Source of the DNA: Escherichia coli | Lineage (GTDB): Bacteria; Pseudomonadota; Gammaproteobacteria; Enterobacterales; Enterobacteriaceae | Length of the DNA: 64,000 nucleotides | Direction: 5' to 3' (one strand) | Assembly (NCBI RefSeq): GCF_044324785.1 | Contig: NZ_CP172127.1 | Shown here: one piece after another, positions 16,001-19,000 of the stretch | How the letters are laid out: each line of letters starts with the position of its first letter | How positions within the stretch are numbered: the first letter of the stretch is position 1 | Made by a program: the position numbers

Positions 16001-19000
16001 GCATCGGGCGGAGTTGCTCCTGCATCGTGGTGGACGGCTCAACCTCTTCAGTCAGGTGTGCAATCTCCTGCACCGCATTCACATACGCCATTTCGCTGGC
16101 GATGAGTTCGTCCCACTGTTCTTCTATTGCCAGGCGTAACATGAGCTGGCTTTTTTCGACGAGTTGTTGCCAGGCGAAATACAAATGCGGTGCATGGTTC
16201 ATCAGACTGGGTCCTGAATCAAAGAAGGGGAGAGTAAAGACTCTTTCCAGGCATCGGCAATATTACGCATTAATGCTTCCACTTCTTCGACTGCGGAGAC
16301 ATCGTTGCGTAAATTGGCTTGCAGCAAGCGCCTGACCATATAGCTATAAAGAGCAATCAAGTTTTGGGTTAGTTCGTCTTTGCTCTCTTCATCAAGACTC
16401 ACCCGCAGCCCGTTCTCAATGATGTTGATCGCTTTTGACAAAGAGACGCCTTTGCCTTGCTGATTGTTGTCCTGCATAAACAGGCGCGCTCTAACCAGTG
16501 CGCTCAGCACTCCATCAAATAGCATGGTGACCAGCTGTTGCTGGCTGGCGCTCATTACGGCGCTTTCGACGCCAATTTGTGCATAGGCTTTTGAGCCGCT
16601 CGCGGTATACATGCTGACCTCCGTGATCAGGAATTACTCATTGCAGTAAATTGTTGGCTGAGATAGGTACTGGTGTTATTCAGTTTGCTCATCATGGTAT
16701 CTAATTGCGTAAACTGTGCAGTGTAACGCGCCACGGTGTCATCAATGCTGGCACTGACGGATAGATACTGTTTGGTCAGTTTTTTCAGTGTGGCGTTAAT
16801 ACTGTCCTGTGCGCTATCAATAATGCCATCATCGGCAAGGTAACCTTTTACCTCGGTGGCAATTTTGGTGGTAATTCCTGTTTCTTTACCATCGCCTACC
16901 AGCAATTCACGTACGGATGCTGTATTTTCATTCAGGACTTTTTTGAGTTTATCATCATCAATTTTCAGCTTACCCGTCGTGCCGTCCTGCTTAATCCCGA
17001 TCTCGTTTAATGTTTTGAAGGCACCGTCGCTGGCACCGTTTGCAAATTGTGCGCGGATGCCGCTTTGAATTGTACGTACAACGCTGTCTCCGAGAAGTGC
17101 ACCATTATTTTTATCTTGTGCTTCAGCACCTGGGTCTACTTCTTTATATTTTGTCAGGGTGTTAAAGGTGTCAATGAGGGAGTTATATGAATCCACCCAG
17201 CCTTTAATTGCTTCGGTTGCTTTATCGTTGCTTTTTGTCACCGTGACCCGGACGTCAGTGACTTTTTTGGTCAAATCGAGAGTCACTCCCTGAGGAGCAT
17301 CGGTAATTTTGTTACTTGAACGTTCAATATCGATACCGTTAACGTTTAGCTGTGCATTTTGCGCGTTAACCAGTTCCTTCATATTCCCGGTGTTGGTCTT
17401 GCTGTCATAAGCCAGCAGATCATTTAATTTACTGTCACCCTCAACAGATATGGTCATTTTATTGGCCAGACCTTCACTGGCGGTCAATACCAATTGATAG
17501 TTACCATCTTTGACTTTAACGATACTAGCGGAAATTCCACTATCGGCATCGTTAATGGCTTTGCTGATCTCATCCAATGACGTCTGATCTTTATTGAGCT
17601 TGATTTCCAGCGGCTCTTTACGACCGTCTTGGGTAATTTTTATTGTGCGTGTATCTGATGACTCATCACCCAGTGCATCTTTTGTTGATGCAATGATTGT
17701 CGGGGAATCAGTTCGTAAAGATTGCGCCTGCGCCAGTTGGGTTACGCTGATGGTATAGATACCGGGGGCAGCACCTGCTTCGGTGGAAACTTTAAGGTCT
17801 TCATTGCTACTGGTAACGGTAGTGCTTTTGAACAGATCGGCTTTATTTAACGCAGTATTTGCAGTCTGGAATTTTTCTAATGCACTTTTTAATGTGCCAT
17901 AGGCTGTCAGACGTGCGGTATTGTCACTCTGTTGCTGAGTAATTGGGTTTAAGCGTTTTTTTTCAGCGATGGTCAGGTTGTTTAGCAATGTATCCAGCGG
18001 CAGATTCGAACCAACGCCAAGAGATGTAAATGAAGCCATACCTAATTCCTTTTGATTGCAAACAGTAGATAAGCGGGTTATCGGCAATTTGTGCGCAAAG
18101 TTTAATAGTTGATTCACGAAGATGATGCGCAGAGTAGAGTTGTATATTACGGATATTTCAGCCGTTAAGAAAAAACAGGAGAGAAACTAAAATTTTCTAA
18201 AGTTCGAAATTCAGGTGCCGATACAAGGGGTACGGTGAGAAACCGTGGGCAACAGCCCAATAACATCAAGTTGTAATTGATAAGGAAAAGATCATGGCAC
18301 AAGTCATTAATACAAACAGCCTGTCGCTGTTGACCCAGAATAACCTGAACAAATCTCAGTCTTCTCTGAGCTCCGCCATTGAACGTCTCTCTTCTGGCCT
18401 GCGTATTAACAGTGCTAAAGATGACGCAGCAGGTCAGGCGATTGCTAACCGTTTTACGGCAAATATTAAAGGTCTGACTCAGGCTTCCCGTAACGCGAAT
18501 GATGGTATTTCTGTTGCGCAGACCACTGAAGGTGCGCTGAATGAAATTAACAACAACCTGCAGCGTATTCGTGAACTTTCTGTTCAGGCAACTAACGGTA
18601 CTAACTCTGACAGTGACCTGACCTCCATCCAGTCCGAAATCCAGCAACGTCTGAGTGAAATTGACCGTGTTTCTGGTCAGACTCAGTTTAACGGCGTTAA
18701 AGTGCTGGCTTCTGATCAGGATATGACTATTCAGGTTGGTGCAAACGACGGCGAAACAATTACTATTAAACTGCAGGAAATTAATTCCGACACACTGGGA
18801 TTATCTGGTTTTGGTATTAAAGATCCTACTAAATTAAAAGCCGCAACAGCTGAAACAACCTATTTTGGATCGACAGTTAAGCTTGCTGACGCTAATACAC
18901 TTGATGCAGATATTACAGCTACAGTTAAAGGCACTACGACTCCGGGCAAACGTGACGGTAATATTATGTCTGATGCTAACGGTAAGTTGTACGTTAAAGT

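What the first reader, a model, noticed from the sequence alone, without database searches (positions are those of the whole stretch)
18078..18224. Back-to-back divergent sigma-28 promoters for fliD and fliC within 147 bp
The fliD promoter (minus, TAAACTTT-N11-GCCGATAA) and the fliC promoter (plus, TAAAGTTC-N11-GCCGATAC) are separated by about 90 bp. Two FliA holoenzymes would therefore load in opposite directions on one short segment. The same consensus recurs ahead of tar (48204-48230) and inside flhC (43618-43644), which gives a compact in-sequence map of the class 3 regulon.
Basis: partly seen in the sequence, partly recalled or inferred. Interest (0 to 1): 0.2.

Follow-up and report, generated by a model that had tools for sequence, protein, structure and literature searches.

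The report
Known divergent fliD/fliC flagellar promoters

Summary
TAAACTTT-N11-GCCGATAA lies on the minus strand at 18078-18104, 38 nt before the fliD ATG. TAAAGTTC-N11-GCCGATAC lies on the plus strand at 18198-18224, 69 nt before the fliC ATG. The gap between them is 93 bp. The tar site (48204-48230, a perfect match) and the flhC-internal site (43618-43644) are also exact.

The window is an E. coli chromosome. In K-12 the orthologous fliC, fliDST, tar and flhC-internal sites are FliA ChIP-seq peaks (Fitzgerald 2014). The flhC-internal promoter is known to drive MotR and motAB-cheAW.

What I add:
- Both promoters recur in 25 of 27 other divergent fliD/fliC loci.
- They are kept in all three deeply diverged E. 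coli alleles of this region.
- The best match to the FlhDC-box consensus in the whole window (18124-18166) lies between the two promoters. It sits a fixed 18-20 bp from the fliD -35 element, while its distance to fliC varies. So fliD has a dual class 2/class 3 promoter, and its sigma-28 -35 element probably doubles as a sigma-70 -10 hexamer. That last point is inferred.

Interest is low.

The parts
18078..18104 (-). Sigma-28 (FliA) class 3 promoter of fliDST. -35 TAAACTTT at 18104-18097, 11-nt spacer, -10 GCCGATAA at 18085-18078. Predicted start site about 18070-18071.
   Evidence: The orthologous K-12 site is a FliA ChIP-seq peak. Conserved in 25 of 27 other divergent loci, with the -10 ending 32-45 nt before the fliD ATG in nearly all of them. 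The start site is inferred from the +7 rule seen for MotR.
18198..18224 (+). Sigma-28 (FliA) class 3 promoter of fliC. -35 TAAAGTTC at 18198-18205, 11-nt spacer, -10 GCCGATAC at 18217-18224. Predicted start site about 18231-18232.
   Evidence: The K-12 fliC site is the strongest FliA ChIP peak (score 110), and fliC RNA falls from 2319 to 11 in the fliA deletion strain.
18124..18166 (.). FlhDC box: GATGCGCAGAGTAGAG-N11-GGATATTTCAGCCGTT. This is the activator site of the class 2 (sigma-70) fliDST promoter.
   Evidence: Matches 22 of 28 positions of the published consensus AAYGSSNNAAATAGCG-N10-12-CGCTATTTNNSSCRTT (consensus). It is the best match in the 64-kb window, with 0.05 expected per shuffle. 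In 21 of 29 fliD/fliC intergenic regions the best box lies 18-20 bp from the fliD -35 element. K-12 shows weak FlhDC ChIP-qPCR occupancy at fliDST.
18099..18104 (-). Candidate sigma-70 -10 hexamer TAAACT of the FlhDC-dependent class 2 fliD promoter. It coincides with the sigma-28 -35 element. Predicted class 2 start site about 18092.
   Evidence: Inference from geometry. The edge of the FlhDC box is followed after 18-19 bp by a -10-like hexamer at fliA (GATAAT, 19911-19916), at fliL (GATAAT, 2360-2355) and at fliD (TAAACT). No start-site data were available.
18167..18197 (+). A-rich stretch upstream of the fliC -35 element. The AAAA(A/T)(A/T)TT(T/C) run next to the -35 element is conserved and may be a UP-like element. 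The distal part varies in length.
   Evidence: Alignments. The gap between the box and the fliC -35 element varies from 12 to 182 bp. The UP-element function is inferred, not tested.
16627..18039 (-). fliD (filament cap), first gene of fliDST.
18294..19787 (+). fliC (flagellin), 497 aa.
18232..18258 (+). Two stem-loops at the start of the fliC 5' UTR (ACGGT...ACCGT and GGGC...GCCC).
   Evidence: The second stem shows changes on both sides that keep pairing between alleles (GGGC/GCCC here, GGGT/ACCC in K-12). The first stem changes on one side only and pairs in a shifted register in K-12 (CGGC...GCCG). RNAalifold recovered only the first stem.
43618..43644 (+). Sigma-28 promoter inside flhC, driving MotR and motAB-cheAW.
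   Evidence: Identical to the K-12 ChIP site. Described in the literature.
43651..43745 (+). MotR small RNA (95 nt), ending at the terminator that follows flhC.
   Evidence: The K-12 motR annotation maps onto the window at 98% identity. Its 5' end is 7 nt after the last base of the -10 octamer.
48204..48230 (+). Sigma-28 promoter of tar-tap-cheRBYZ, a perfect match to the consensus.
19901..19928 (+). Its FlhDC box lies at 19850-19892.
   Evidence: It is a K-12 ChIP site, and the window differs from it by one base in the spacer.
2344..2371 (-). Its FlhDC box lies at 2380-2421.
   Evidence: Identical to the K-12 ChIP site.

Best explanation
The 254-bp gap between fliD and fliC is the well-known flagellar late-gene control region of E. 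coli. It holds three separate elements, not two.

1. A sigma-28 (FliA) promoter faces right and makes the fliC mRNA, with a predicted start at about 18231-18232 and a 5' UTR of about 62 nt.
2. A sigma-28 promoter faces left and makes the fliDST mRNA, with a predicted start at about 18070-18071.
3. Between them lies an FlhDC box (18124-18166), locked at a fixed distance to the fliD side. It lets sigma-70 RNA polymerase transcribe fliDST earlier, as a class 2 operon.

Once the hook-basal body is complete, FlgM is exported and FliA is freed. FliA holoenzyme then binds each sigma-28 promoter independently. The predicted start sites are about 160 bp apart, so the polymerase footprints do not overlap.

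What is shown here: the motifs, their positions, their conservation, and the position and fixed spacing of the FlhDC box. What is shown in the literature for K-12: FliA and FlhDC occupancy and the dependence of expression on each. What is inferred: the exact start sites, and that the TAAACT of the fliD -35 element also serves as the sigma-70 -10 hexamer.
For: - The motifs are exact.
- The weight-matrix scan gives far more hits than shuffled sequence does.
- K-12 FliA ChIP-seq shows peaks at fliC (score 110) and fliDST (score 43), each displaced towards its own gene. fliC RNA falls from 2319 to 11 in the fliA deletion strain. fliDST RNA falls from 633 to 356 in the fliA deletion strain but from 633 to 3 in the flhD and flhC deletion strains. 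FlhDC ChIP-qPCR is positive at fliDST.
- Both sigma-28 motifs are present, at p<=0.01 against shuffles, in 25 of 27 other divergent fliD/fliC loci. These come from Citrobacter, Kluyvera, Rahnella, Erwinia, Yersinia, Serratia, Photorhabdus, Edwardsiella, Providencia, Pectobacterium and others.
- Both motifs are kept in all three E. coli allele families, although the window and K-12 intergenic regions are only 56% identical.
- The FlhDC box is the best consensus match in the window. The scan is validated by its next hits, which fall at the position of yecR, a known FlhDC target, and in the fliF/fliE gap.
- The box lies 18-20 bp from the fliD -35 element in 21 of 29 loci, while the gap between the box and fliC varies from 12 to 182 bp.
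- The annotated 5' end of MotR lies 7 nt after its -10 element. This supports the start-site rule I used.
Against: - I could retrieve no start-site data for fliC or fliD on this allele or in K-12.
- The ChIP and RNA data come from K-12. Its promoter sequences differ from the window's in the spacer and in one or two -10 positions, so occupancy on this allele is extrapolated.
- FlhDC binding at fliDST is weak in K-12. It fell below the ChIP-seq peak-calling threshold, and the genomic SELEX intensity was only 6.
- The FlhDC consensus is degenerate. The known boxes at fliA and fliL score only 19 of 28.
- The fliC motif scores only 15.5 on the full matrix, no better than the top chance hit in a shuffled window.
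Confidence: 0.9

Rival explanations
1. fliDST on this allele is driven essentially by the FlhDC-dependent sigma-70 promoter. The fliD-facing sigma-28 motif is bound by FliA but contributes little RNA under ordinary growth, so in practice there is one working sigma-28 promoter (fliC), not two.
For: In K-12, deleting fliA leaves fliDST at 356 of 633, which is not significant, while deleting flhD or flhC takes it to 3. The authors state that most transcription of dual-regulated genes comes from the FlhDC-dependent promoters under their conditions.
Against: - The fliD-facing motif is the more conserved of the two. TAAACTTT-N11-GCCGATAA(C) is almost invariant across genera and scores 21-22.
- FliA occupies it in K-12 (score 43).
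- Loss of fliDST in the flhD and flhC deletion strains is also expected indirectly, because fliA itself needs FlhDC.
Confidence: 0.25
2. The two sigma-28 promoters are functionally coupled, for example through the negative supercoiling generated behind each departing polymerase or through FlhDC-induced bending. On this view their 120-bp spacing is itself under selection.
For: Centre-to-centre spacing is 119-122 bp in 10 of the 29 loci, including both E. coli alleles examined there, Citrobacter, Kluyvera, Rahnella, Serratia and Edwardsiella.
Against: - Spacing elsewhere ranges from 56 to 303 bp.
- A third E. coli allele carries a 19-bp deletion between the box and fliC.
- All the length variation lies between the FlhDC box and the fliC -35 element. 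That is what independent promoters would show.
- The common spacing can be explained by shared descent.
Confidence: 0.07
3. The motifs are chance matches to an AT-rich consensus in an AT-rich intergenic region.
For: The fliC motif scores 15.5 on the full matrix, which is within the range of the best hit in a shuffled 64-kb window. A motif of similar strength inside yecU (26031-26058, score 17.8) has no K-12 ChIP peak.
Against: Position, orientation, cross-genus conservation and K-12 ChIP-seq all argue against it. The chance of two correctly oriented hits in 254 bp is of the order of 1e-5 or less, going by the shuffle rates.
Confidence: 0.01

Closest known systems
E. coli K-12 fliC and fliDST FliA promoters (Fitzgerald, Bonocora & Wade 2014, PMC4183435)
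   Same: Same genes, same orientation and same 120-bp distance between motif centres. The same elements are conserved: the TAAA of the -35 element and the CGATA core of the -10 element. fliDST is under dual FlhDC/FliA control.
   Different: The sequences differ. K-12 fliC is TAAAGGTT-GTTTTACGACA-GACGATAA and K-12 fliD is TAAACTTT-GCGCAATTCAG-ACCGATAA. The intergenic regions are only 56% identical, because the window carries another fliD/fliC allele.
Salmonella fliD class 2 plus class 3 promoters (Kutsukake & Ide 1995; Wozniak, Chevance & Hughes 2010; cited, not readable here)
   Same: fliDST has a dual promoter. Fitzgerald et al. report that the class 3 part is needed for swarming and filament repair.
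   Different: I could not read these papers or fetch the Salmonella sequence. From memory, the window's fliC promoter and 5' UTR look nearly identical to Salmonella's, but this was not tested.
Overlapping class 2/class 3 promoters of fliA and fliL (Liu & Matsumura 1996, cited by Fitzgerald 2014)
   Same: An FlhDC box is followed after 18-19 bp by a sigma-70 -10-like hexamer that overlaps a sigma-28 promoter.
   Different: At fliA and fliL the hexamer (GATAAT) lies in the sigma-28 spacer, and the gap from the box to the sigma-28 -35 element is 8 bp. At fliD the hexamer (TAAACT) is the sigma-28 -35 element itself, and the gap is 19 bp. The sigma-28 promoter thus lies 11 bp, about one helical turn, further from the box.
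motA promoter inside flhC, with MotR (Fitzgerald 2018 preprint 10.1101/188474; Melamed 2023, PMC10578931)
   Same: The window sequence is identical to K-12 across the promoter. The -10 element overlaps the FlhC Ala-Asp codons, and a terminator follows flhC.
   Different: None of note. There is one substitution in the 231 aligned window bases.

Membership tests
Sigma-28 (FliA) class 3 flagellar promoter | -35 TAAAGTTT and -10 GCCGATAA separated by 11 nt | tested here: met
   fliD has 1 mismatch, fliC 2, flhC-internal 2 and tar 0. All have an 11-nt spacer. On the matrix of 45 K-12 sites from outside this region the scores are 21.3, 15.5, 22.2 and 26.0.
Sigma-28 (FliA) class 3 flagellar promoter | Located just upstream of, and facing, a late flagellar or chemotaxis gene | tested here: met
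   The -10 elements end 38 nt before the fliD ATG, 69 nt before the fliC ATG and 31 nt before the tar ATG. The flhC-internal -10 ends 170 nt before the motA GTG, with MotR and a terminator between.
Sigma-28 (FliA) class 3 flagellar promoter | Conserved in orthologous positions in related species | tested here: met
   25 of 27 divergent fliD/fliC loci from other genera have both motifs at p<=0.01 against shuffles. All three E. coli alleles have both.
Sigma-28 (FliA) class 3 flagellar promoter | Start site about 7-9 nt downstream of the -10 element | tested here: inconclusive
   Met for the flhC-internal promoter: the annotated 5' end of MotR maps to 43651, 7 nt after the -10 element. No start-site data were retrievable for fliC or fliD.
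Sigma-28 (FliA) class 3 flagellar promoter | FliA holoenzyme occupancy and FliA-dependent expression in vivo | not testable with these tools
   Published for the K-12 orthologues. There are ChIP-seq peaks at all four sites. fliC and tar show significant FliA dependence and motA falls from 302 to 1; fliDST is only partly dependent. Nothing was measured on this allele.
FlhDC-activated class 2 promoter (FlhDC box) | Two 16-bp inverted half-sites, AAYGSSNNAAATAGCG-N10-12-CGCTATTTNNSSCRTT | tested here: met
   18124-18166 matches 22 of 28 positions with an 11-nt spacer. It is the best match in the window, with 0.05 expected per shuffle.
FlhDC-activated class 2 promoter (FlhDC box) | Fixed position relative to a sigma-70 core promoter | tested here: met
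   The box edge is followed after 18-19 bp by a -10-like hexamer at fliA, fliL and fliD in this window. The 18-20 bp gap from the box to the fliD -35 element is kept in 21 of 29 loci. That the hexamer works as a -10 element is inferred.
FlhDC-activated class 2 promoter (FlhDC box) | FlhDC binding and FlhDC-dependent, FliA-independent transcription | not testable with these tools
   In K-12, ChIP-qPCR is positive but the site fell below the ChIP-seq peak-calling threshold, and the genomic SELEX intensity was 6. fliDST falls from 633 to 3 in the flhD and flhC deletion strains and from 633 to 356 in the fliA deletion strain.
Overlapping (face-to-face or shared-element) bidirectional promoter pair | The two divergent promoters share or overlap core elements or polymerase footprints | tested here: not met
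   The -35 elements are 93 bp apart and the predicted start sites about 160 bp apart. An independent regulator site lies between them. The K-12 ChIP peaks are resolved 164 bp apart.

The most novel reading that the evidence does not exclude
The whole fliD / three-promoter / fliC unit (16589-19808) behaves as one exchangeable antigenic cassette. It has sharp borders: one at about codon 8 of fliS, the other 21 nt after the fliC stop codon, just upstream of the fliC terminator stem. E. coli carries at least three versions, diverged to roughly 50-56% from each other and each closer to another genus than to the other versions. Across them, only the two sigma-28 promoters, the FlhDC box with its 19-bp offset to TAAACT, and the 5' UTR stems have been held constant. 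[quoted passage not shown] This would give a hard-wired hand-over from class 2 to class 3 transcription on the same DNA.
Probability: 0.4. Interest if true: 0.3.

Novelty: already known. Interest (0 to 1): 0.1.

Why it matters
This is a correct reading of a well-known regulatory region, so it matters little for discovery. It has three modest uses.

1. It shows that a bare consensus scan recovers the main class 3 promoters of this region. The same scan misses fliA and fliL, whose -35 elements are poor. It also raises at least one strong motif, inside yecU, that is not bound by FliA in K-12.
2. The deep divergence between E. coli alleles gives a natural footprint. It marks which bases of the fliD-fliC control region are under constraint.
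3. That footprint gives testable positions for the class 2 fliD promoter.

Tried and rejected
- **Start-site evidence.** Wozniak 2010 (PMC2937404), Stafford 2005 (PMC2528288) and Thomason 2015 are not held. The Cho 2014 supplements do not mention fliC, fliD or motA. The Cappable-seq start-site table is cut off before this region. Two further literature searches and one paper gave no fliC or fliD start site.
- **AcrR.** It was predicted to bind the fliDST promoter, but the same paper shows no binding in gel-shift assays. I rejected it as a player here.
- **Sigma-70 scan.** The generic consensus scan of 17950-18350 found only TTAAGA-17-TAAAAT on the plus strand (18165-18193). That is no more than shuffles give, so I did not use it. 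It cannot see activator-dependent promoters that lack a -35 element.
- **Selected spacing.** I considered that the 119-122 bp spacing between the two promoters is under selection. I rejected this because all the length variation lies between the FlhDC box and fliC.
- **fliC 5' UTR folding.** RNAalifold recovered only the first stem, because the alignment of the second stem is poor.
- **Salmonella comparison.** I could not test my recollection that this allele is Salmonella-like.
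Full report
**What the window is.** The window is an E. coli chromosome, in the reverse orientation relative to K-12. Bases 17000-19000 match 858 complete E. coli genomes over at least 80% of their length, the best at 99.8% identity. Bases 42500-48800 match 5,411 of 5,426 genomes. Annotation of a near-identical strain, the ORF lists and direct reading give this layout:
- fliO through fliF on the minus strand (64-8704), then fliE
- amyA 14272-15759 (minus), fliT 15837-16202 (minus), fliS 16202-16612 (minus)
- fliD 16627-18039 (minus)
- fliC 18294-19787 (plus), fliA 19953-20672 (plus), then fliZ and tcyJ
- further on, flhC (stop near 43687), motA (GTG at 43815) and tar (ATG at 48262)

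**Checking the observation.**
- The minus strand of 18078-18104 reads TAAACTTT-GCGCACAAATT-GCCGATAA.
- The plus strand of 18198-18224 reads TAAAGTTC-GAAATTCAGGT-GCCGATAC.
- The two -35 elements are 93 bp apart.
- The flhC-internal site (43618-43644) lies in the last codons of flhC. The tar site (48204-48230) is a perfect match to the consensus.

**Is it more than chance?** The consensus with up to 3 mismatches occurs 5 times, against 0.41 expected. For a fairer test I built a position weight matrix from the 52 FliA ChIP-seq motifs in Table 2 of Fitzgerald et al. 2014, leaving out the seven that lie in this chromosomal region. The scores are tar 26.0, flhC-internal 22.2, fliD 21.3 and fliC 15.5. 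Four hits reach 16, against 0.23 expected per shuffled window. The fliC score alone is no better than the best chance hit in a shuffled 64-kb window, so the case for fliC rests on position and conservation.

**What is already published.** In K-12, FliA ChIP-seq gives peaks at fliC (score 110), fliDST (43), tar (57) and inside flhC (101). The fliC and fliDST motif centres are 120 bp apart, the same as in the window (18091 and 18211). Each of those two peak centres is displaced from its motif towards its own gene, as expected for two outward-facing holoenzymes. fliC RNA falls from 2319 to 11 in the fliA deletion strain. The flhC-internal promoter is described as the motAB-cheAW promoter. It is the most conserved of all FliA promoters and constrains the FlhC Ala-Asp codons. 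It also produces the small RNA MotR, which ends at a terminator that must be read through to reach motA.

**Conservation.** A scan of one genome per species with the FliC N-terminus returned 80 loci. In 27 of them fliD lies divergently upstream of fliC: 26 are Enterobacterales and one is an Alloalcanivorax. In 25 of the 27, the best fliC-facing and the best fliD-facing matrix hits both beat shuffled intergenic sequence at p<=0.01. Positions are stereotyped. The fliD -10 element ends 32-45 nt before the ATG in nearly all loci, and the fliC -10 element ends 58-95 nt before the ATG.

**An unexpected natural experiment.** The window's intergenic region is only 56% identical to K-12's, although the flanking genes are 98-99% identical.
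- The divergent block is sharply bounded at 16589-19808, that is, fliD, the intergenic region and fliC.
- FliD here is 51% identical to K-12 FliD but 83% identical to Citrobacter werkmanii FliD. K-12 FliD is 80% identical to a Kluyvera FliD.
- Among 5,426 E. coli genomes, 860 carry the window's intergenic allele. About 3,190 carry a K-12-like allele (95% identity or more). About 1,315 carry a third type, roughly 70% identical to K-12's.
- All three alleles keep both sigma-28 promoters.

The multi-species alignment shows two further conserved blocks between the promoters. They match the published FlhDC-box consensus AAYGSSNNAAATAGCG-N10-12-CGCTATTTNNSSCRTT.
- The site at 18124-18166 matches 22 of 28 positions. 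It is the best match in the whole window, with 0.05 expected per shuffle.
- The scan is credible. Its next-best hits fall upstream of a 107-aa lipoprotein ORF at the position of yecR, a known FlhDC target, and in the fliF/fliE gap.
- In 21 of 29 fliD/fliC intergenic regions the best box lies 18-20 bp from the outer edge of the fliD -35 element. Its distance to the fliC -35 element varies from 12 to 182 bp. The box therefore belongs to fliD.
- This agrees with K-12 data. fliDST depends on FlhDC (633 to 3) but only weakly on FliA (633 to 356). FlhDC is detectable at fliDST by ChIP-qPCR. The authors call it a complex promoter.

**Inferred mechanism for the class 2 fliD promoter.** In this window the fliA box (19850-19892) is followed after 18 bp by GATAAT. 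The fliL box (2380-2421) is followed after 19 bp by GATAAT. The fliD box is followed after 19 bp by TAAACT, which is the first six bases of the sigma-28 -35 element. I infer that TAAACT (18104-18099, minus strand) is the sigma-70 -10 hexamer of the class 2 promoter, giving a start site near 18092, about 21 nt upstream of the class 3 start. This is geometry, not measurement.

**Start sites.** The only direct check I could make is MotR. Its annotated K-12 5' end maps to window 43651, 7 nt after the last base of the -10 octamer. Applying the same rule gives 18231-18232 for fliC and 18070-18071 for fliD. I could not retrieve start-site tables for these two genes.

**Completeness of the 'regulon map'.** The window also holds three other sites that are FliA ChIP sites in K-12:
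- the sigma-28 promoter of fliA (19901-19928)
- the sigma-28 promoter of fliL (2344-2371)
- a weak otsA-internal site (40384-40411), whose -10 element is mutated here

Conversely, a strong motif inside yecU (26031-26058, score 17.8) is present in K-12 with one spacer mismatch but is not among the 52 ChIP sites. This is a reminder that a sequence match alone does not prove binding.

**Verdict.** The two promoters are independent neighbours with a master-regulator site between them. They do not share or overlap any element. Interest is low.

Noticed in passing
window 16589-19808: fliD, the intergenic promoters and fliC form a sharply bounded divergent block. The window is 98% identical to K-12 on both sides but about 50-56% identical inside. 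FliD is 51% identical to K-12 FliD and 83% identical to Citrobacter werkmanii FliD. E. coli genomes split into at least three allele families of the intergenic region: 860 of the window type, about 3,190 of the K-12 type and about 1,315 of a third type.
   Followed up: partly
window 19788-19831: The fliC 3' UTR is only about 44 nt here and ends in the terminator CCCCGCTCCGGCGGGGTTTTTT. K-12's 195-nt FliX small RNA, which the eLife paper says includes at least one REP element, is mostly absent. Only the terminator region aligns. Whether this allele makes a functional FliX is open.
   Followed up: partly
window 26031-26058 (minus strand): A strong sigma-28-like motif, TAACGTAT-N11-GCCGATAT (matrix score 17.8, higher than fliC), lies inside the small gene yecU, about 110 nt upstream of the yecF ATG. 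K-12 has the same sequence with one spacer mismatch, but it is not among the 52 published FliA ChIP-seq sites.
   Followed up: partly
window 43651-43745: The small RNA MotR (95 nt) starts 7 nt after the flhC-internal -10 element and ends at the hairpin and T-run after flhC. Transcription must read through this terminator to reach motA.
   Followed up: yes
window 40384-40411 (minus strand): This is the counterpart of K-12's weak otsA-internal FliA site (ChIP score 2). Here its -10 element is changed from GCCGATAA to GGCGATAA.
   Followed up: no
window 48137-48214 (minus strand): A match to Rfam C0465, an old candidate small RNA (97.7 bits), lies in the cheW-tar gap on the opposite strand. It overlaps the tar -35 element.
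   Followed up: no
window 33564-33605: The second-best FlhDC-box match in the window (21 of 28) lies 56-97 bp upstream of a 107-aa lipoprotein ORF (33185-33508, minus strand) at the position of yecR. yecR is a published FlhDC target.
   Followed up: partly
window 18232-18258: Two adjacent stem-loops lie at the very start of the predicted fliC mRNA. In the second stem both sides change together between the window and K-12 alleles and pairing is kept (GGGC/GCCC versus GGGT/ACCC). The first stem changes on one side only and pairs in a shifted register in K-12 (ACGGT/ACCGT versus CGGC/GCCG).
   Followed up: partly
window 12471-12498 (plus strand): A sigma-28-like motif, GGAAGAAGCGTTTTTCCCAGCCGATAAT (matrix score 15-17), lies antisense within yedE. 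It has a good -10 element and a poor -35 element.
   Followed up: no
window 61473-61780 (plus strand): A full-length match to the MicL small RNA (368 bits).
   Followed up: no
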